Part shown: positions 5,414 to 9,585 of the stretch, one piece after another
How the letters are laid out: every line of letters starts with the position of its first letter
Numbering within the stretch: position 1 is the stretch's first letter
From: a virus
Lineage: Duplodnaviria; Heunggongvirae; Uroviricota; Caudoviricetes
Virus record (IMG/VR): IMGVR_UViG_2778261594_000006
Coordinates: 1-38,639 of that record
Length of the DNA stretch: 38,639 nt
Direction: 5' to 3' (one strand)
Made by a program: the position numbers and the translations under genes
The notes under the pieces: model-generated
What the model was told of the DNA's origin: nothing
Databases searched by the model: none
The model's input: the letters and a program-made list of their open reading frames with translations, nothing else

Positions 5414-6121
5414 TTATGCCGCCTGTTTTAGTTCGTTAACTCTGATGTTCATTACCTGAACGCATTTAGCCTGCGCCTCCTCGTTGCCAGCCATTAATTG
5501 CCAGTCACGCTGATAACGCTCGATGAGTTTTTTCTTGTCAGTTTCTGTTGACGCATAATCGCTGAAGTCTTTCAGGATTTGTTCGCAGTCAACCGATGGA
5601 GATTTCTGGTTGGTATTTTCTGGTGATGGTTTGTTATCTGATGCTGGGATTGCCCATCCCGGCAGCGATGGAGGGAGCCAGTAAAATCCTGTTCCATCCT
5701 TCAGTTTTGCCCTGTGCCACCCCTGCTTTTTATCGAGAGATGTTTGTGCGAAACCTTCCTCAAGGTTATACAGATACCGACCGATTCCCCACTGAACGGC
5801 AGCACGCTTCATTGCACCTGAACGACCACCTTTGACGGCTTCTACCTGCGTGTTTTCAGCAGCATCCCATTTGGTTACCCATTCGGAATCAATCTTGATT
5901 GATATGCCGCATTCAACTCCGCCGTTGTTGGGAATATCGCGGTATTCATTGCGCCATCCTGCTTTGCCGCAAACATCGTCCAGGCGTTTCATGATTGCCC
6001 GATTCGTGACATAAGCCAGCACCATAGCCCACACCTTGCCATCGCGTGTTTTACCGCTTTGCTGTATTCGCCATTCGATATCTTCAGGGCTGAATGGCTC
6101 ATCGAATTTGTTCAAATCCAT
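5414..6121 (-). CDS. Rad52/Rad22-family single-strand annealing protein (phage recombinase)
   Basis: Motifs AYVTNRAIMKRLDDVCGKAGWRNEY and GAMKRAAVQWGIGRYLY typical of the Rad52_Rad22 family; stop abuts ssb start. Confidence 0.75.
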   Translation of the reverse strand: MDLNKFDEPFSPEDIEWRIQQSGKTRDGKVWAMVLAYVTNRAIMKRLDDVCGKAGWRNEYRDIPNNGGVECGISIKIDSEWVTKWDAAENTQVEAVKGGRSGAMKRAAVQWGIGRYLYNLEEGFAQTSLDKKQGWHRAKLKDGTGFYWLPPSLPGWAIPASDNKPSPENTNQKSPSVDCEQILKDFSDYASTETDKKKLIERYQRDWQLMAGNEEAQAKCVQVMNIRVNELKQAA

Positions 6122-6129
6122 AATTCACC

Positions 6130-6300
6130 TCAGAATGGACACGGCCCAAGGAAATAACGCTGATTTAATACTTCGACTCGGGACAAATTAAGGCATACCC
6201 GCATTCCTTCGCGGTCACCATTATGGCGATACCAGAGAGCTTTCTGCGTGTACATGCGTCTCTGTAACTTGCTCTCCTTCACTGTGGTTGCAAGTGACAT
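6130..6300 (-). CDS. Small hypothetical protein (56 aa), candidate Arf-like accessory ORF
   Basis: ATG at 6300 with GGAGAT RBS; ends 9 nt before the recombinase start; overlaps an alternative small ORF. Confidence 0.25.
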   Translation of the reverse strand: MSLATTVKESKLQRRMYTQKALWYRHNGDREGMRVCLNLSRVEVLNQRYFLGPCPF

Positions 6301-6379
6301 GAATATCTCCTTCGTTACCGATTAATTCTTTCATCTGACGAATGAATTCTTCGTCTGACCAGTTATCTGTAAAACTCAT
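6221..6379 (-). CDS. Small acidic hypothetical protein (52 aa), alternative frame coupled to kil
   Basis: ATG at 6379 overlaps the kil stop (ATGA); translation MSFTDNWSDEEFIRQMKELIG...; overlaps ORF 6130-6300 by 80 nt, so at most one is likely real. Confidence 0.25.
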   Translation of the reverse strand: MSFTDNWSDEEFIRQMKELIGNEGDIHVTCNHSEGEQVTETHVHAESSLVSP

Positions 6380-6528
6380 TTCCTGCGATACCACGGAAGG
6401 TTGATAGCTGATTTCATCGCTTTATTTGCTTCAAGCCACATTTTTGAATCACCAATAAATCGGGCTATTACTGCTTTGTTCTGTGCAGCACGAAGCATCT
6501 GGTGATTGATGGCTATTTCATTGCGCAT
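6376..6528 (-). CDS. kil: Kil-like host cell division inhibitor peptide
   Basis: 50-aa ORF MRNEIAINHQMLRAAQNKAVIARFIGDSKMWLEA... resembling lambda Kil (IATFIGDEKMFREA); GGAGG RBS; position between cIII and the recombinase as in lambda. Confidence 0.5.
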   Translation of the reverse strand: MRNEIAINHQMLRAAQNKAVIARFIGDSKMWLEANKAMKSAINLPWYRRK

Positions 6529-6647
6529 AACGCCTCCAGTTGTTTCTTTGCTGCTCTGATTAATTGTTTAACTCGGCGTGTTAATTCAGATTCGTGCGGG
6601 TAGAAAGCGGACATGACGCCGCTACCCGCGAGCTGAAAATGCATCAT
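6513..6647 (-). CDS. cIII: CIII-like protease (FtsH) inhibitor
   Basis: 44-aa ORF MMHFQLAGSGVMSAFYPHESELTRRVKQLIRAAKKQL, comparable to lambda CIII (AIAGWPVAGCPSESLLERITRKLRDGWKRL); AAGGAG RBS 6 nt upstream. Confidence 0.6.
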   Translation of the reverse strand: MMHFQLAGSGVMSAFYPHESELTRRVKQLIRAAKKQLEALCAMK

Positions 6648-6710
6648 GGGTAACTCCTTATATTTGATTGCATAACTAAAATGCCTCTCGTGAAGCATTA
6701 TTGGTATGCA

Positions 6711-6737
6711 TATAAAAAGGCCCTCACATTGGAGGGC
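6711..6737 (-). terminator. Rho-independent terminator in the leftward operon (tL-like)
   Basis: Minus-strand RNA GCCCUCCAAUGUGAGGGC followed by CUUUUUAUA. Confidence 0.55.
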
Positions 6738-6873
6738 AAAGAAGATTTCAAATAATCAGAACAAGTCGACTCCTGTTTAGTTACGAGCGACATTGCTCCG
6801 TGTATTCACTCGTTGGAATGAATACACAGTGCAGTGTTTATTCTGTTGTTTATGCCAAAAATAAAGGCCACCA

Positions 6874-7125
6874 TCAGGCAGCCTTGTTGTAAATGTTGCA
6901 GGTATCAAGTAAGTAATTAGATGGAGCGCCATAAATTATGAATTCATCGTTTGTCGGGTCCATCTCCATCTCTTGGCCTATTGCCATTCTTGCGTCAGTG
7001 TCATCAGAGGCGAAGCATAAAACAGCCCACGCACCCATTGTTTTAAAAAGAACTGCAATTGGCTGTGGTTTTACTGAATTTGCGTTAGCGCGAAAATCAC
7101 AAATCGCACTTTCATGAAATTCCAT
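6874..7125 (-). CDS. Hypothetical early protein (83 aa)
   Basis: ORF with GAGGTGAG RBS upstream of ATG at 7125; lies in the N-to-cIII accessory slot. Confidence 0.5.
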   Translation of the reverse strand: MEFHESAICDFRANANSVKPQPIAVLFKTMGAWAVLCFASDDTDARMAIGQEMEMDPTNDEFIIYGAPSNYLLDTCNIYNKAA

Positions 7126-7258
7126 ATCTCACCTCAAATAAGTGGTTTGCTGCCTAATTTCATTTTCTGGCGACCAACACAAGTCACACCCATTTCACTG
7201 CGTGGCTTGCGGTAGTAAATAGGGTTATTTATGTCATTAAAAACCAGCATGAGCGTGG

Positions 7259-7525
7259 TTATTTTTTCTTTCCAAGAGATGGAAGCCCTCCAGAATAATC
7301 TGGACCACTTGAACGATGCATTTGATACAATATTGCGTTTTTGTTGGCGTTTAGTGGCTTTGTTGCGAAAGAAATTTTTTCTCGTTTTACATCTCTTATC
7401 ATCATCAACTCACGTTCTGATGCTTTTGGATGATAATCATTGATATGCTTCCATGCTGCCTTGGCGCTGAATTTTCTTCCACATAAAGGGCAATAGCATT
7501 TATATGATACTTGTTTGCTAGTCAT
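7259..7525 (-). CDS. Zinc-finger-like hypothetical protein (88 aa)
   Basis: CYCPLCGRKF...HINDYH (C-x2-C...H-x4-H); start 2 nt after the N stop, consistent with translational coupling. Confidence 0.5.
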   Translation of the reverse strand: MTSKQVSYKCYCPLCGRKFSAKAAWKHINDYHPKASERELMMIRDVKREKISFATKPLNANKNAILYQMHRSSGPDYSGGLPSLGKKK

Positions 7526-7527
7526 TT

Positions 7528-7836
7528 CTATCTCGCCGTAATTGATTTCATTGACCTGTAACCAGCAGCATACAGTGCAACTTCAGGCAAACAAACGCTT
7601 CCGCCATTCGCATCTGTATTTGATTTACTGATGATGCCGAGTGATATTGCTTTTTCAGAAAGACTTAAACGCTTTCTCGGTTCTTCCTGAACAGCTTCCT
7701 CACTGTCTGTGCCGAAGATCGAATCGATGATGTTGCAGATGGAATCACGCTCGATAGCCAGCTTTCTGCGCCGCTCATGACGGCGAGTTTTGGCATTTCC
7801 TGCAAATGTTGATTTTCCGTACACGATTACCGTCAT
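7528..7836 (-). CDS. N: Antitermination protein N (P22 gene 24-type)
   Basis: Arg-rich motif GNAKTRRHERRRKLAIERD near the N-terminus matches the P22 N boxB-binding peptide; first ATG at 7836 (track ORF extends upstream without RBS); nutL lies just upstream. Confidence 0.8.
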   Translation of the reverse strand: MTVIVYGKSTFAGNAKTRRHERRRKLAIERDSICNIIDSIFGTDSEEAVQEEPRKRLSLSEKAISLGIISKSNTDANGGSVCLPEVALYAAGYRSMKSITAR

Positions 7837-7955
7837 GATGTTTTCCTCATGTGAAATGGCTTTGGTGGTGATGCGCCAGGTGCTGATCTTCTGGTTGCTG
7901 TCGTTGCAGCTGCAATTCACATCACCGCCAAACCCATCTCGTTTGGTATCTGTTT

Positions 7956-7990
7956 GCGCTTTGTCAGCGCCCCATCGAAGTTAAAGAGCC
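7956..7990 (-). promoter_or_regulatory. nutL site (boxA-like + boxB hairpin)
   Basis: Minus-strand boxA-like GGCTCTTTAA (7981-7990) then boxB GCGCUGACAAAGCGC (7956-7970), between the pL candidate and N. Confidence 0.65.
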
Positions 7991-8035
7991 TGCCAATCTG
8001 TTCCGTTTGGCTTCCAGCTTCCTGCTGATGGCTAA

Positions 8036-8077
8036 ATAGTACGATGTGTACTTTATTGAGTCAATACAAAATGTTCT
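8036..8077 (-). promoter_or_regulatory. pL promoter candidate with OL operator half-site palindromes
   Basis: Minus-strand -35 TTGACT (rc of 8059-8064), 17-nt spacer, -10 TACTAT (rc of 8036-8041); palindrome AGTAC-N5-GTACT at 8038-8052 and a degenerate copy at 8063-8077. Confidence 0.4.
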
Positions 8078-8121
8078 AAATGTGGTTGGTTTTTTATAAC
8101 ACTTTGTATTTTATTGATTTA

Positions 8122-8158
8122 TATTTTGGAAAAAGAAAACCCGACGCTAAGGTCGGGT
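8122..8158 (-). terminator. Rho-independent terminator downstream of cI
   Basis: Hairpin ACCCGAC-GCUAAG-GUCGGGU (8139-8158) followed on the minus strand by a U-rich tract; 32 nt after the cI stop. Confidence 0.55.
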
Positions 8159-8189
8159 TATTGTTGTGTGTTTTAGAGTGGTGAGGCTG

Positions 8190-8849
8190 TTAACTAAATG
8201 TCTCTTCAGGCCACTGGCTGGCGATAACTTTCCCTACTACGGAACAGCTATCATTGCATGGGATCATTGGATATTGCGGGTTTAGTGGTTGTAGGAACAC
8301 CTGACCGCTATCCCTGATCAGTTTCTTGAAGGTAAACTCGTCACCGCCAAGTCTGGCTATGCAGAAATCTCCTGGCTCAACAGCCTGCTCAGGGTCAACG
8401 AGAATTAACATTCCGTCAGGAAAGCTTGGCTTGGATCCTGTTGGTGCGGTCATGGAATTACCTTCAACTTCAAGCCAAAACGCACAATCACTGGCTTTTT
8501 TGGTTGTGCTGACCCATCTCTCCGCATCACCTTTGGTAAAGGTTCTAAGCTCAGGCGAGAACATCCCGGCCTGAACATGAGAAAAAACAGGGTACTCATA
8601 TTGTTTTTTAACGGGGGCAGATGAGTATTCGCCAGCAGGTGAAAATGTACCGTCGTGGTTGAATGAGACGTTATCAATACCAAGGTATTTAAACACCACA
8701 CCAATCTCGTCAAGAGATGGATGACGAGATCCGCGCAACCAGTGACCAATTCCACCCTGCGTCATACCAAGCTCTTCAGCTAACTTCTCTTGAGTTATGC
8801 CGAGCTCTTTCATTCTGGATCTAGCCAGTTCATACCATTTCATTTTCAT
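8190..8849 (-). CDS. cI: CI-type repressor (HTH domain + LexA-like S24 autocleavage domain)
   Basis: N-terminal HTH ([20 protein letters not shown]), C-terminal S24-type region ending ...[26 protein letters not shown] resembling P22 C2/lambda CI; divergent from cro. True start may be the ATG at 8843 (better RBS spacing). Confidence 0.85.
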
Positions 8850-8960
8850 ATCCTTATTATTACGCTATGTACTAAAACCATCCATGCACAAGATGTATTT
8901 TTTGTTTGCATTCCAAAAGTACATATCGTATTATTGTTTCATGGTTACTATGGAGGGCAT
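8850..8960. promoter_or_regulatory. OR / pR / pRM divergent control region
   Basis: pR candidate -35 TTGCAT (8906-8911), 17-nt spacer, -10 TATTAT (8929-8934); operator-like AGTAC-N5-GTAtT at 8918-8932 and AtTAC-N5-GTACT at 8859-8873. Confidence 0.45.
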
Positions 8961-9176
8961 ATGAGCAACCTACGAAAATATCGAGAGTCACTGAATATCT
9001 CTCAAACAACACTTGCTAAGGCGGTTGGATGCACACAGGGAGCTATCGGACATTGGGAATCTGGTCGTCGCTTCCCAGACCTTAAAACATGCCGTGCTCT
9101 TGTTGCGTGCCTAAACAAGTTAGGCGCAAAAGTCAGTCTTGATGACGTGTTCCCGCCGGAACACAAAGCCGCTTAA
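8961..9176 (+). CDS. cro: Cro-like HTH repressor
   Basis: 71-aa ORF from ATG 8961 (GGAGGG RBS); HTH motif ISQTTLAKAVGCTQGAIGHWESG; divergent from cI. Confidence 0.75.
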   Translation: MSNLRKYRESLNISQTTLAKAVGCTQGAIGHWESGRRFPDLKTCRALVACLNKLGAKVSLDDVFPPEHKAA

Positions 9177-9186
9177 TAAGCGGATC

Positions 9187-9221
9187 CGCTCTTTATCAAT
9201 CCGCACCGCCGACAACGCGGT
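9187..9221 (+). promoter_or_regulatory. nutR site (boxA + boxB hairpin)
   Basis: boxA CGCTCTTTA (9187-9195); boxB-like hairpin ACCGCCGACAACGCGGU (9205-9221) with GACAA loop motif, as in nutL. Confidence 0.6.
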
Positions 9222-9285
9222 AACTAATTAAGCACTCATCGAAAGATGGGTATTAGTGATTATTTACCTATGGAAATAGTAAGAA

Positions 9286-9585
9286 ATGGAACAAACAAGT
9301 TACAGCAAACTATCACAGCGCGACGTTGATCGTGCAGAAACAGATTTACTTATCAACCTGTCAACGCTTACCCAGCGCGGTCTGGCAAAGATGATTGGCT
9401 GTCATGAATCGAAGATAAGCAGAACGGACTGGAGATTTATTGCTTCGGTTCTGTGTGCTTTCGGAATGGCATCAGACATCAGTCCGATTAGCAGGGCTTT
9501 TAAGTATGCGCTTGATGGACTCACCAATAAAAAACGCCCGGTGTGCAAGACCGAGCGTTCTGATCAAATACAAATGGAATTTTAA
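9286..9585 (+). CDS. cII: CII transcriptional activator
   Basis: 99-aa ORF; C-terminus LTNKKRPVCKTERSDQIQMEF closely matches lambda CII (ILTNKKRPAATERSEQIQMEF). Confidence 0.85.
   Translation: MEQTSYSKLSQRDVDRAETDLLINLSTLTQRGLAKMIGCHESKISRTDWRFIASVLCAFGMASDISPISRAFKYALDGLTNKKRPVCKTERSDQIQMEF

What the first reader, a model, noticed from the sequence alone, without database searches (positions are those of the whole stretch)
6740..7525. Accessory slot between N and cIII: zinc-finger ORF coupled to N, an 83-aa ORF and a perfect 10-bp-stem hairpin
The 88-aa C-x2-C...H-x4-H protein starts 2 nt after the N stop. An 83-aa ORF follows. In the untranslated stretch before the tL-like terminator there is a perfect inverted repeat CGTGTATTCA-n8-TGAATACACG (6799-6828). 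In lambdoid phages this slot typically holds host-takeover or exclusion functions (ral and sieB-type), so the contents here are candidates for uncharacterized early functions.
Basis: partly seen in the sequence, partly recalled or inferred. Interest (0 to 1): 0.4.

Follow-up and report, generated by a model that had tools for sequence, protein, structure and literature searches.

The report
Phage accessory slot holding PreS sRNA
Between the N and cIII genes of this P22/lambda-like phage lie two small genes of unknown function and a copy of the recently described lambda small RNA PreS; the reported hairpin is a stem-loop, kept by compensating mutations, that ends exactly where PreS begins.

Summary
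N (7528-7836, minus strand) is followed 2 nt later by an 88-aa C2H2 zinc-finger ORF, then by an 83-aa ORF. The hairpin is misdescribed: the perfect DNA stem is 9 bp with a 10-nt loop. On the leftward (pL) transcript it folds into a 14-bp core with two G.U pairs, about 20 bp in all.

The "untranslated stretch" is a known gene. Bases 6798-6711 are 82/88 identical to lambda PreS/LPR1, an Hfq-dependent small RNA that ends at terminator tL2a and activates dnaN. The hairpin's last base pair is the first base of PreS as cloned by its discoverers, who do not discuss the hairpin in their preprint.

Five unrelated stem sequences occupy this position in relatives, and 30 pairs are G.U against 1 A.C. It is therefore a selected RNA structure. 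It most likely marks where PreS is cut from the long transcript; the nuclease is not known.

Both proteins are real and uncharacterised. The zinc-finger family is rare and nearly always lies directly after N. In Proteus, Pantoea and a metagenome-assembled genome it lies in N's own place. Some of those members carry an N-like C-terminal tail, a weak lead towards a role in transcription.

Overall this is a new member of known kinds, with two modest new leads.

The parts
7528..7836 (-). N antitermination gene (102 aa, P22/phage-21 type). It forms the upstream boundary of the slot.
   Evidence: Pfam PF25694 N_peptide 7.2e-37. Same length as phiKp_30 N. Stop TAG at 7530-7528.
7259..7525 (-). 88-aa single C2H2 zinc-finger protein. 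Its start is 2 nt after the N stop. It has C12/C15/H27/H32, a helix carrying the motif ASExELxxIRDxKR, a basic linker and the C-terminal motif SGGLPSLGKKK.
   Evidence: phrog_20899, 2e-64, unknown function. Homologues at 38-100% identity keep the motifs. A family profile hits classical C2H2 fingers in the PDB, Aart 2.1e-6. AlphaFold2 gives beta-beta-alpha plus a helix but mean pLDDT is only 49.
6874..7125 (-). 83-aa protein of unknown function. It is the homologue of VT2-Sakai H0090 and HK106_042.
   Evidence: phrog_2471, 2.9e-61, unknown function. 16 clusters at 70-99% identity in E. coli and Enterobacter. No Pfam, NCBIfam, PADLOC or PDB match. AlphaFold2 mean pLDDT 51 and no fold match.
6854..6885 (-). 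Terminator-like hairpin, AAGGCUGCC-UGAU-GGUGGCCUU followed by UAUUUUU. It spans the last three codons and the stop codon of the 83-aa ORF. Lambda ral ends in the same shared sequence (NKAA, stop).
   Evidence: 9 pairs, 5 G-C. Alignment with lambda, HK106 and VT2-Sakai. Ral in L129 ends ...KNKAA.
6790..6837 (-). Structure-conserved RNA stem-loop on the pL transcript. The core is 14 bp, 6829-6816 with 6811-6798, with loop 6815-6812.
   Evidence: Covariation across four stem sequences: score 0.454 against 0.150 in shuffles, reached by 0 of 500. A fifth stem type in L147. 30 G.U against 1 A.C cells.
6711..6798 (-). Homologue of lambda sRNA PreS (LPR1), 88 nt. It comprises a small 5' hairpin (6798-6785), a seed region (about 6768-6737) and a terminator.
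   Evidence: 82/88 identical, without gaps, to the LPR1 sequence defined by the authors' cloning primers. The predicted seed duplex with the E. coli dnaA-3'/dnaN leader is -30.7 kcal/mol, the same as for lambda.
6711..6737 (-). Rho-independent terminator, the equivalent of lambda tL2a. Stem 6737-6720, then CUUUUUAUA. It forms the 3' end and the Hfq-binding module of PreS.
   Evidence: Annotated as a terminator in HK97 and HK106. Assigned to tL2a in the preprint.
6513..6647 (-). cIII gene. It forms the downstream boundary of the slot.
   Evidence: Pfam cIII 1.8e-29. Coordinates transferred from the HK106/HK97 annotation.

Best explanation
The region is the mosaic accessory slot of the leftward early (pL) operon of a CUS-3/P22-like lambdoid phage. 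It is built from three modules that recombine independently.

(1) N with a coupled zinc-finger gene. The 88-aa single C2H2 finger protein starts 2 nt after the N stop. It would be made from the immediate-early transcript together with N.

(2) A swappable cargo gene. Here it is the 83-aa H0090-type ORF. Lambda carries ral in the same place.

(3) A conserved RNA module: stem-loop, then PreS sRNA, then the tL2a terminator.

Shown:
- Module 3 is the homologue of lambda PreS/LPR1.
- The stem-loop is a selected RNA structure on the pL strand.
- The stem-loop abuts the 5' end of PreS as cloned by its discoverers.

Taken from the preprint on lambda: PreS is an Hfq-dependent sRNA made in the lytic cycle. 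It pairs with the end of dnaA and the dnaN leader and raises DnaN synthesis.

Inferred:
- PreS has no promoter of its own and is cut out of the long pL transcript.
- The stem-loop, stacked on the small 5' hairpin of PreS, fixes the cleavage point at its 3' base.
- After cleavage it stays as a protective 3' cap on whatever cargo mRNA lies upstream.
- RNase III is the favoured nuclease for the 20-bp version found here, but that is unproven.

The two proteins are real early genes without assigned function. For the zinc-finger protein the best guess is a nucleic-acid-binding or RNA-polymerase-directed factor linked to N.
For: PreS identity.
- 6798-6711 matches the authors' LPR1 (GAGCAATGTCGCTCGTAACT ... 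GAGGGCGATTTTTTA, Table S5) at 82 of 88 positions without gaps.
- It has the same position, between the cargo gene and the terminator, as in lambda between ral and ea10.
- Terminator and U-run are present. The seed duplex with dnaN is unchanged.
- The segment is found in 334 phage records and in 2246 of 5426 complete E. coli genomes.

The hairpin is a selected RNA structure.
- Among loci carrying the PreS 5' anchor, the same position and register hold four unrelated stems (GUGUAUUCAUUC, UAUAGCAGAUU, AAUGCGGA, AAUGACCAUU).
- A fifth stem occurs in a diverged PreS relative.
- Eight consecutive pairs show double changes. Covariation is 0.454 against 0.150, reached by 0 of 500 shuffles. Slid controls give at most 0.118.
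- G.U against A.C is 30 to 1 on the pL strand.

The hairpin belongs with PreS.
- At least eight different upstream sequences join just 5' of the stem.
- Hairpin types are shuffled between the two kinds of PreS body, with the joint at the conserved GAGCAAT(G/A)TCGCTCGTAAC.
- The PreS 5' G is the closing pair of the core stem.
- The authors' full lpr1 deletion leaves the stem intact.

No own promoter.
- No promoter-like site lies upstream of PreS.
- The upstream sequence is not conserved.
- PreS is expressed only in the lytic cycle.

The proteins are real.
- Motifs are conserved at 38-100% identity for the zinc-finger protein and 70-99% for the 83-aa protein.
- The zinc-finger gene lies next to an N-family ORF in 26 of 27 assessable loci.
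Against: - No RNA ends were measured here. The PreS 5' end is the one the authors chose for cloning and fits an ~88-nt northern band. It could be off by a few nucleotides.
- The preprint says nothing about how PreS is made.
- Many variants have only 13-16 bp of stem, short for a classical RNase III substrate.
- The covariation rests on about four or five independent stem replacements. These may be recombination events rather than many point substitutions.
- A hairpin that only stabilises the upstream mRNA would explain the same data without defining the sRNA end.
- The protein functions rest on context only. Both AlphaFold2 models have low confidence.
Confidence: 0.7

Rival explanations
1. The stem-loop only protects mRNA. 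It acts as a 3' barrier to exonucleases for the upstream cargo gene, or as a 5' cap of a longer PreS precursor. It does not determine where PreS is cut. The PreS 5' ends are made elsewhere by RNase E.
For: - The hairpin sits 4-25 nt after the cargo ORF stop codon in every context.
- Stems of 13-16 bp in many variants are typical of stabilisers.
- The abundant 68-nt form starts about 20 nt further down, in an A/U-rich single-stranded stretch.
Against: - The hairpin travels with PreS, not with the cargo genes.
- The 88-nt form begins at its 3' base.
- There are 0-1 unpaired nucleotides between it and the PreS 5' hairpin, which leaves little room for RNase E.
Confidence: 0.3
2. The inverted repeat works in DNA. 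It would be a binding site for a dimeric protein, or a cruciform or recombination hotspot that marks the mosaic joint.
For: - It lies exactly at a recombination boundary between modules.
- The plus-strand version also folds, -24.4 kcal/mol.
Against: - Five unrelated sequences keep the pairing, so no protein recognition sequence is conserved.
- G.U pairs occur only on the transcript strand, 30 against 1.
- In 11 of 15 variants the pL strand folds better than its complement.
Confidence: 0.04
3. The stretch 6698-6793 encodes a 31-aa peptide and the hairpin regulates its translation.
For: An ATG-initiated ORF exists at 6698-6793 on the minus strand.
Against: - The ATG becomes ATA in many relatives (AGCAATATCG).
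- There is no ribosome-binding site.
- The reading frame ends differently in lambda.
- The RNA is documented as an Hfq-bound base-pairing sRNA.
Confidence: 0.02
4. The zinc-finger and 83-aa proteins are anti-defence or exclusion cargo, ral/sieB-like. The zinc-finger gene's adjacency to N only reflects the first insertion point after N.
For: - The slot holds ral or sieB in relatives.
- The same N allele exists without the zinc-finger gene.
- The family is rare and patchy: 1 of 50,697 phage records, plus one partial match in a second record, and none in species-representative genomes.
Against: - No match passing a threshold to any defence or anti-defence model.
- Adjacency to N holds across 38-100% identity and several N subtypes.
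- Relatives occupy N's own position and carry an N-like tail.
Confidence: 0.35

Closest known systems
Lambda PreS (LPR1) sRNA, bioRxiv 10.1101/2024.10.31.621285
   Same: - Same genomic place and strand.
- 93% identity over 88 nt.
- Same tL2a-type terminator with a U-tail.
- Same seed, with equal predicted pairing to the dnaA-3'/dnaN leader.
   Different: - Six substitutions. One is G49U in the seed, which matches the E. coli TCA codon rather than the TCC of Klebsiella and Citrobacter.
- Here cIII follows directly, with no ea10.
- Expression and Hfq binding were not tested here.
Phage RNase III processing stem-loops (T7 R1.1-type signals, the lambda N leader, sib); from established knowledge
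   Same: - An irregular hairpin of about 20 bp inside a polycistronic early transcript.
- The downstream RNA begins at its 3' base.
- The hairpin would remain on the upstream RNA.
   Different: - Cleavage has not been shown.
- Many variants are only 13-16 bp.
- The product is a trans-acting sRNA, not an mRNA.
sRNAs derived from 3' UTRs or from within operons and released by processing (CpxQ, SroC, SdhX type); from established knowledge
   Same: - No own promoter.
- Shares the terminator of a longer transcript.
- Hfq-dependent.
   Different: - Those are generally released by RNase E at single-stranded sites and have no conserved flanking hairpin.
- Here a covarying stem-loop abuts the 5' end.
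Classical C2H2 (beta-beta-alpha) zinc fingers; single-finger binders with basic flanks such as GAGA factor
   Same: - C-x2-C ... H-x4-H with a conserved Phe.
- The family profile hits the designed finger proteins Aart and 'consensus zinc finger'.
- The nearest folds are all C2H2 fingers.
- Basic flanking segments.
   Different: - The spacer is 11 residues, not 12.
- Below all Pfam cut-offs.
- Bacterial-virus origin.
- A conserved C-terminal SGGLPSLGKKR motif with no known counterpart.
Lambda-family N and HK022 Nun
   Same: - The zinc-finger gene is coupled to N, or replaces it as the first pL gene in Proteus, Pantoea and a MAG.
- Short family members end in LPxxxLY...VTAR, like N.
- Others end in a basic stretch plus Trp, like Nun.
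   Different: - The window's own protein has no detectable similarity to N.
- It has no arginine-rich motif of the N type.
- The tail similarities are below the family threshold.
Lambda ral/sieB accessory region
   Same: - Same slot.
- The 83-aa ORF and ral even share their last four codons and the following terminator-like hairpin.
   Different: No sequence or family similarity of either ORF to Ral or SieB.

Membership tests
PreS/LPR1 sRNA | At least 92% identity with no more than 3 gaps to lambda LPR1 (the preprint's own conservation criterion) | tested here: met
   82/88 = 93%, no gaps. The criterion is quoted.
PreS/LPR1 sRNA | Lies on the pL strand downstream of the accessory gene and ends at a tL2a-type intrinsic terminator with a U-tail | tested here: met
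PreS/LPR1 sRNA | Seed complementary to the dnaA-3'/dnaN leader | tested here: met
   Duplex of -30.7 kcal/mol for both the window and lambda, against the target reconstructed from the authors' primers.
PreS/LPR1 sRNA | Lytic-cycle expression, Hfq binding and up-regulation of DnaN | not testable with these tools
   Known only for lambda.
RNase III processing site | About two helical turns (about 20 bp) of largely continuous double-stranded RNA | tested here: inconclusive
   The window and lambda have 14+3+3 bp with two 1-nt internal loops. Other variants have 13-16 bp. Stacking on the PreS 5' hairpin could extend the helix.
RNase III processing site | rnc-dependent cleavage leaving 2-nt 3' overhangs | not testable with these tools
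   No 5'-end data. The preprint does not mention RNases.
Intrinsic terminator (for the hairpin itself) | G+C-rich stem followed directly by a U-run | tested here: not met
   The stem is A/U-rich and is followed by GAGCAAUGUCGC.
Pfam zf-C2H2 (PF00096) and related finger families | Score above the curated gathering threshold | tested here: not met
   14.1 bits against 25.2. The best is zf-Di19, 19.6 against 27.5.
Classical C2H2 finger (fold level) | C-x2-4-C-x12-H-x3-5-H ligands on a beta-beta-alpha unit | tested here: inconclusive
   - The ligands are invariant or nearly so in the family.
- The spacer is 11 residues.
- Beta-beta-alpha is predicted, but mean pLDDT is 49.
- The PDB profile hit to Aart is 2.1e-6.
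- Foldseek hits are all fingers, but with E above 1.
N antiterminator family (PF25694), for the zinc-finger protein | N-terminal arginine-rich motif and the C-terminal CLPxxxxYxxxYR...TAR motif | tested here: not met
   - The window's zinc-finger protein against its own N: no alignment.
- Family profile against the N profile: probability 0.2%.
- Only the short Proteus/Arsenophonus-type relatives show the C-terminal motif, below threshold.
Ral / SieB | Sequence membership | tested here: not met
   No Pfam or PHROG hit to either family for either ORF.

The most novel reading that the evidence does not exclude
The small C2H2 zinc-finger proteins form an unrecognised family of phage early factors that act on the transcribing RNA polymerase. 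They would be analogues or partners of N and Nun in which a zinc finger plus an Arg-rich helix replaces the arginine-rich RNA-binding motif.

In Proteus, Pantoea and a MAG they occupy the N/nun position, behind a conserved structured leader. Some carry N-like (LPxxxLY...VTAR) or Nun-like (basic plus Trp) tails.

The window's copy, coupled to N and bearing a different conserved tail (SGGLPSLGKKK), would modulate antitermination or exclude other phages.

A second part of the reading is independent of the first. The covarying stem-loop would be a dedicated release signal that lets lambdoid phages excise the PreS sRNA from an antiterminated polycistronic transcript.
Probability: 0.2. Interest if true: 0.65.

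Novelty: new member of a known kind. Interest (0 to 1): 0.42.

Why it matters
**PreS reaches beyond lambda.** PreS is one of the few phage sRNAs with a demonstrated host target. This window shows the same module in a P22/CUS-3-type podophage. It also shows that the module carries a structure-conserved stem-loop exactly at its 5' boundary. That gives a concrete, testable model for how a trans-acting sRNA is released from an antiterminated operon.

**The slot has a modular anatomy.** N with or without the zinc-finger gene, then cargo, then stem-loop, PreS and tL2a. This explains why a 136-bp segment is 95-99% identical in hundreds of otherwise mosaic phages and is present in about 40% of complete E. 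coli genomes.

**A new candidate for transcription control.** The zinc-finger family is linked to N by position and, in some members, by an N-like tail. It is a cheap candidate for a new player in early phage transcription control.

Tried and rejected
- **Rfam.** A scan of 5500-9500 at E up to 1 gave only a chance mir-15 hit, so PreS is not in Rfam 15.
- **Own promoter for PreS.** None was found.
- **Coding potential of the PreS stretch.** Rejected, because the ATG is lost in relatives.
- **Structure in the spacer between the zinc-finger ORF and the 83-aa ORF (7126-7270).** Not significant, z = -0.4.
- **Protein family searches.** Pfam, NCBIfam, PADLOC and PDB sequence searches gave nothing for the 83-aa ORF. 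For the zinc-finger protein they gave only sub-threshold finger hits.
- **AlphaFold2.** Both proteins gave mean pLDDT of about 50. Fold searches were therefore uninformative.
- **Zinc-finger relatives in GTDB species-representative genomes.** None found.
- **Literature.** Searches for the old lambda pL processing papers, for the C-terminal motif and for an EHEC name of this sRNA found nothing usable. I could not check whether 1980s mapping of lambda pL processing sites already placed an RNase III site here.
- **A different host target for the Salmonella-type PreS seed.** The 80 dnaA loci returned contained no Salmonella. The seed pairs poorly with the dnaA ends of 18 other Enterobacterales, so this is unresolved.
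- **Leaders upstream of the N-position zinc-finger genes compared with HK022 putL.** Shared blocks exist but there is no Rfam model and no clean alignment, so this is unresolved.
Full report
**Context**

The window is a lambdoid phage with P22/CUS-3-type late genes. The best match over 25 kb is CUS-3, 61% covered at 96% identity.

Around the finding, the genes run leftward on the minus strand:
- a cI-type repressor at 8190-8849;
- a terminator at 8159-8138;
- a pL-like promoter at 8064-8036;
- N at 7528-7836 (Pfam N_peptide 7.2e-37);
- the two ORFs of the finding;
- cIII at 6513-6647 (1.8e-29) and kil at 6376-6528 (1.7e-20).

No phage record covers 80% or more of 6400-8000. The region is a mosaic of pieces that are each 95-99% identical to different phages.

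**Checking the observation**

The 88-aa ORF (7259-7525) starts 2 nt after the N stop codon, reading TAG AA ATG. It carries C12-x2-C15-x11-H27-x4-H32. The 83-aa ORF (6874-7125) has a strong ribosome-binding site.

The hairpin was misread:
- 6819-6828 is TGAATACACA, so the perfect DNA stem is 9 bp.
- The loop is 10 nt.
- The repeat finder extends it to 22-nt arms, 6790-6811 and 6816-6837, 82% complementary.

On the minus-strand RNA the two C.A mismatches become G.U pairs. This gives a 14-bp core plus two 3-bp extensions. The folding energy is -24.9 kcal/mol with z = -6.4, and 0 of 200 shuffles fold as well.

Two terminator-like sites flank the hairpin on the same strand. One at 6885-6864 spans the 83-aa ORF stop codon. 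The other is at 6737-6720.

**What the "untranslated stretch" is**

Bases 6740-6875 match 334 phage records, and 329 of them are 95-99% identical. They include lambda, HK97, HK106 and the Stx phages. The 201-bp neighbourhood occurs in 2246 of 5426 complete E. coli genomes. In lambda the segment is the ral-ea10 intergenic region.

A full-text search for the terminator name tL2a led to bioRxiv 10.1101/2024.10.31.621285. That preprint describes LPR1, renamed PreS. According to it:
- PreS lies between ea10 and ral and ends at tL2a.
- It gives northern bands of about 88 and 68 nt.
- It is Hfq-bound and made only in the lytic cycle.
- It activates dnaN translation and represses alaS.
- Deleting it lowers phage yield 2- to 4-fold.

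The authors' cloning and in-vitro-transcription primers define LPR1 as GAGCAATGTCGCTCGTAACT ... GAGGGCGATTTTTTA. Window bases 6798-6711 match this at 82 of 88 positions without gaps.

The differences are C30U, G49U, G70A, G80C, A81U and U86A. The predicted seed duplex with the dnaA-3'/dnaN leader, reconstructed from the authors' primers, is -30.7 kcal/mol for both versions.

The stretch is therefore a PreS gene, and the "tL-like terminator" is its 3' end.

**What the hairpin is**

The first base of LPR1 (window 6798) is the closing base pair of the 14-bp core stem. The next eight bases overlap the lower stem. The authors' full lpr1 deletion primer ends exactly at ...GAGTGAATACACG and so leaves the stem in place. 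The preprint text and supplements contain no mention of a hairpin, RNase III or RNase E.

I anchored a scan of IMG/VR on the conserved PreS 5' sequence. Every locus has a hairpin at the same place, but with four unrelated stem sequences, all in the same register.

On a 15-sequence alignment:
- eight consecutive pairs show double (compensatory) changes;
- 87% of cells are paired, against 70% in shuffles;
- the covariation score is 0.454 against 0.150, reached by 0 of 500 shuffles;
- slid controls give at most 0.118.

A fifth stem, GAUAGCCGAUUC, precedes a more diverged PreS relative in L147. There the small PreS 5' hairpin also changes compensatorily, from GAGC...GCUC to GAUGC...GCAUC.

Across variants there are 30 G.U cells against 1 A.C cell on the pL strand. 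This argues for function as RNA on that strand.

The sequence upstream of the stem differs among at least eight contexts, and it joins at (C)GAATAAGCAC or AATAAACACTGCAC. Hairpin types are also shuffled between two kinds of PreS body. The stem-loop therefore belongs to the PreS module and marks the left edge of the variable slot.

**How it most likely works**

The following is inferred, not shown. No promoter-like site or conserved sequence lies upstream of PreS, and PreS is made only in the lytic cycle. PreS must therefore be cut from the pL transcript.

The 88-nt form begins at the 3' base of the stem-loop. Only 0-1 unpaired nucleotides separate the stem-loop from the PreS 5' hairpin.

The simplest model has three steps:
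- The two helices define an endonucleolytic cut at their junction.
- The stem-loop then caps the upstream cargo mRNA.
- The shorter 68-nt form arises by a second cut in the A/U-rich linker.

RNase III is plausible for the 20-bp version here. E. coli RNase III is known to cut irregular phage hairpins and stacked helices. However, stems of 13-16 bp in other variants weaken this. A pure stabiliser role is the main rival. No end-mapping data were available.

**The 83-aa ORF**

It is the homologue of VT2-Sakai H0090 and HK106_042. It forms 16 clusters, in E. coli and Enterobacter, with a conserved core, KPQPIAVLFKTMG.W.VLCFA.

Nothing was found in Pfam, PHROGs (function unknown), NCBIfam, PADLOC or the PDB. 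AlphaFold2 gave mean pLDDT 51 and there was no fold match.

Its last four codons (NKAA, stop) and the terminator-like hairpin are shared with lambda ral. The mosaic joint therefore lies inside the 3' end of the ORF. It is interchangeable cargo. Its function is unknown.

**The zinc-finger ORF**

The family is rare:
- 7 clusters by word-index search;
- 25 representatives among 1.84 billion;
- one full-length match (phiKp_30) among 50,697 phage records, plus a partial match in a second record;
- none in species-representative genomes.

Homologues at 38-100% identity keep CPxCG..F, HI...H, ASDxELxxIRDARR and, in one subgroup, a C-terminal SGGLPSLGKKR. A family profile hits classical C2H2 fingers in the PDB, with Aart at 2.1e-6. 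The low-confidence model is beta-beta-alpha plus a helix, and its nearest folds are all C2H2 fingers.

In IMG/VR, 26 of 27 assessable loci have an N-family ORF ending just upstream of the zinc-finger gene. The gap is 2-33 nt to the start codon in the loci examined. The exception, L152, has a lambda-type N, then a Nun-like ORF, then the zinc-finger gene. The distance from the zinc-finger gene to PreS varies from about 380 to 1790 bp among loci whose zinc-finger protein is 96-100% identical to the window's. The zinc-finger gene therefore travels with N, not with the cargo.

A profile search added members from Proteus, Pantoea and Arsenophonus. In Proteus, in Pantoea and in a metagenome-assembled genome, the gene is the first ORF after the repressor gene, and no N ORF fits in the 270-350-nt gap. 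These short members lack the GGLPSLGKKR tail. Instead they end in an N-like motif. The evidence for this is weak but consistent:
- P0044 LPSMSLYATTHKKNGRVKDVTAR against N LPEVALYAAGYRSMKSITAR, BLASTP E = 0.002;
- P0051 hits the C-terminal end of Pfam N_peptide at E = 0.008, below the cut-off;
- profile against profile, E = 0.0023 over 20 columns, probability 12%;
- two members end in a basic stretch plus Trp, as HK022 Nun does.

The window's own protein shows no similarity to N. This is a lead towards a transcription-elongation role. It is not a demonstration.

**Comparison and novelty**

The RNA module is a new member of a known sRNA family. The slot architecture is classical lambdoid mosaicism.

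Two things appear to be new, as far as the accessible literature shows:
- the covarying stem-loop that abuts PreS;
- the N-linked zinc-finger family, with members in the N position.

I could not check the older lambda RNA-processing literature or the journal version of the preprint.

**Verdict**

The core of the finding is explained by known biology. It leaves two modest, testable new leads.

Noticed in passing
window 6746-6763 (PreS seed; G49U at 6750): The window's PreS has U where lambda has G in the seed (UUAUUUGAAA against UUAUUGGAAA). The U matches the E. coli dnaA TCA (Ser) codon. Lambda's G matches the TCC codon of Klebsiella, Citrobacter and Enterobacter. Predicted duplex energies are equal in E. 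coli and weaker for the window variant in the other genera.
   Followed up: partly
L006, L011, L038, L054 (IMG/VR and Salmonella phage UPF_BP1): A second, longer kind of PreS body occurs mainly in Salmonella-type phages. Its seed is CGUUCUGGUUAAUCGAAAAAUCAUC and it has an extra small hairpin. The seed pairs poorly with the dnaA 3' ends of 18 Enterobacterales, so it may have another target. No Salmonella dnaA sequence was in the set.
   Followed up: partly
L236 2330-2460, L238 2355-2450, L240 2350-2460: The zinc-finger genes that sit in the N position are preceded by a conserved leader of about 100 nt. It has the blocks TGAACGGCRCA, GTCGGGCGG and CCGAAGTGGCAA, with a covarying small hairpin between the last two. 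There is no Rfam hit. It loosely resembles the region upstream of HK022 nun, where putL lies.
   Followed up: partly
L152 2682-2975: An ORF lies between a lambda-type N and the zinc-finger gene. It ends ...NHKVNHAHQRRPGKKW, very like the zinc-binding, Trp-bearing C-terminus of HK022 Nun (...VNHAHQRNPNKKWS).
   Followed up: no
L153 3302-3475 and L155 3302-3475: A second, shorter paralogue (57 aa) of the zinc-finger protein lies directly downstream of the first. It lacks the C-terminal tail.
   Followed up: no
window 6854-6885: The 83-aa ORF and lambda ral share their last four codons (NKAA, stop) and a terminator-like hairpin that holds the stop codon in its loop. The stem is stronger here (9 bp) than in lambda, which by my reading of the alignment has two mismatches.
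   Followed up: partly
window 6669-6710: An imperfect inverted repeat (19-nt arms, 79% complementary) and a terminator-like hairpin at 6699-6680 lie between tL2a and the cIII start (6647). This may be a structure in the cIII leader.
   Followed up: no
window 7134-7250 (minus strand): A 38-aa ORF lies in the spacer between the zinc-finger ORF and the 83-aa ORF. One database protein (P0004) is a frameshift fusion of the zinc-finger protein to this frame. Another (P0003) has a frameshifted N-terminus that lacks the cysteines. This suggests decay of the gene in some prophages.
   Followed up: no
L127 2667-2909 (E. coli 1916D6): In this prophage a DUF7446 gene is inserted between the 83-aa ORF and the PreS module. 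It is another example of cargo exchange at the same joint.
   Followed up: no
window 7956-7970 (minus strand): GCGCUGACAAAGCGC lies in the N leader. From memory it matches the P22-type boxB of nutL, which would fit the P22/21-type N. It was not tested with a tool.
   Followed up: no
window 6711-6798 (minus strand): In the predicted fold of the 88-nt PreS, the 5' GAGCAA pairs with UUGUUC at the start of the seed. The L147 covariation instead supports a local 5' hairpin, GAGC...GCUC. Either way the 68-nt form would have a freer seed, which hints that the second cut activates the sRNA.
   Followed up: no
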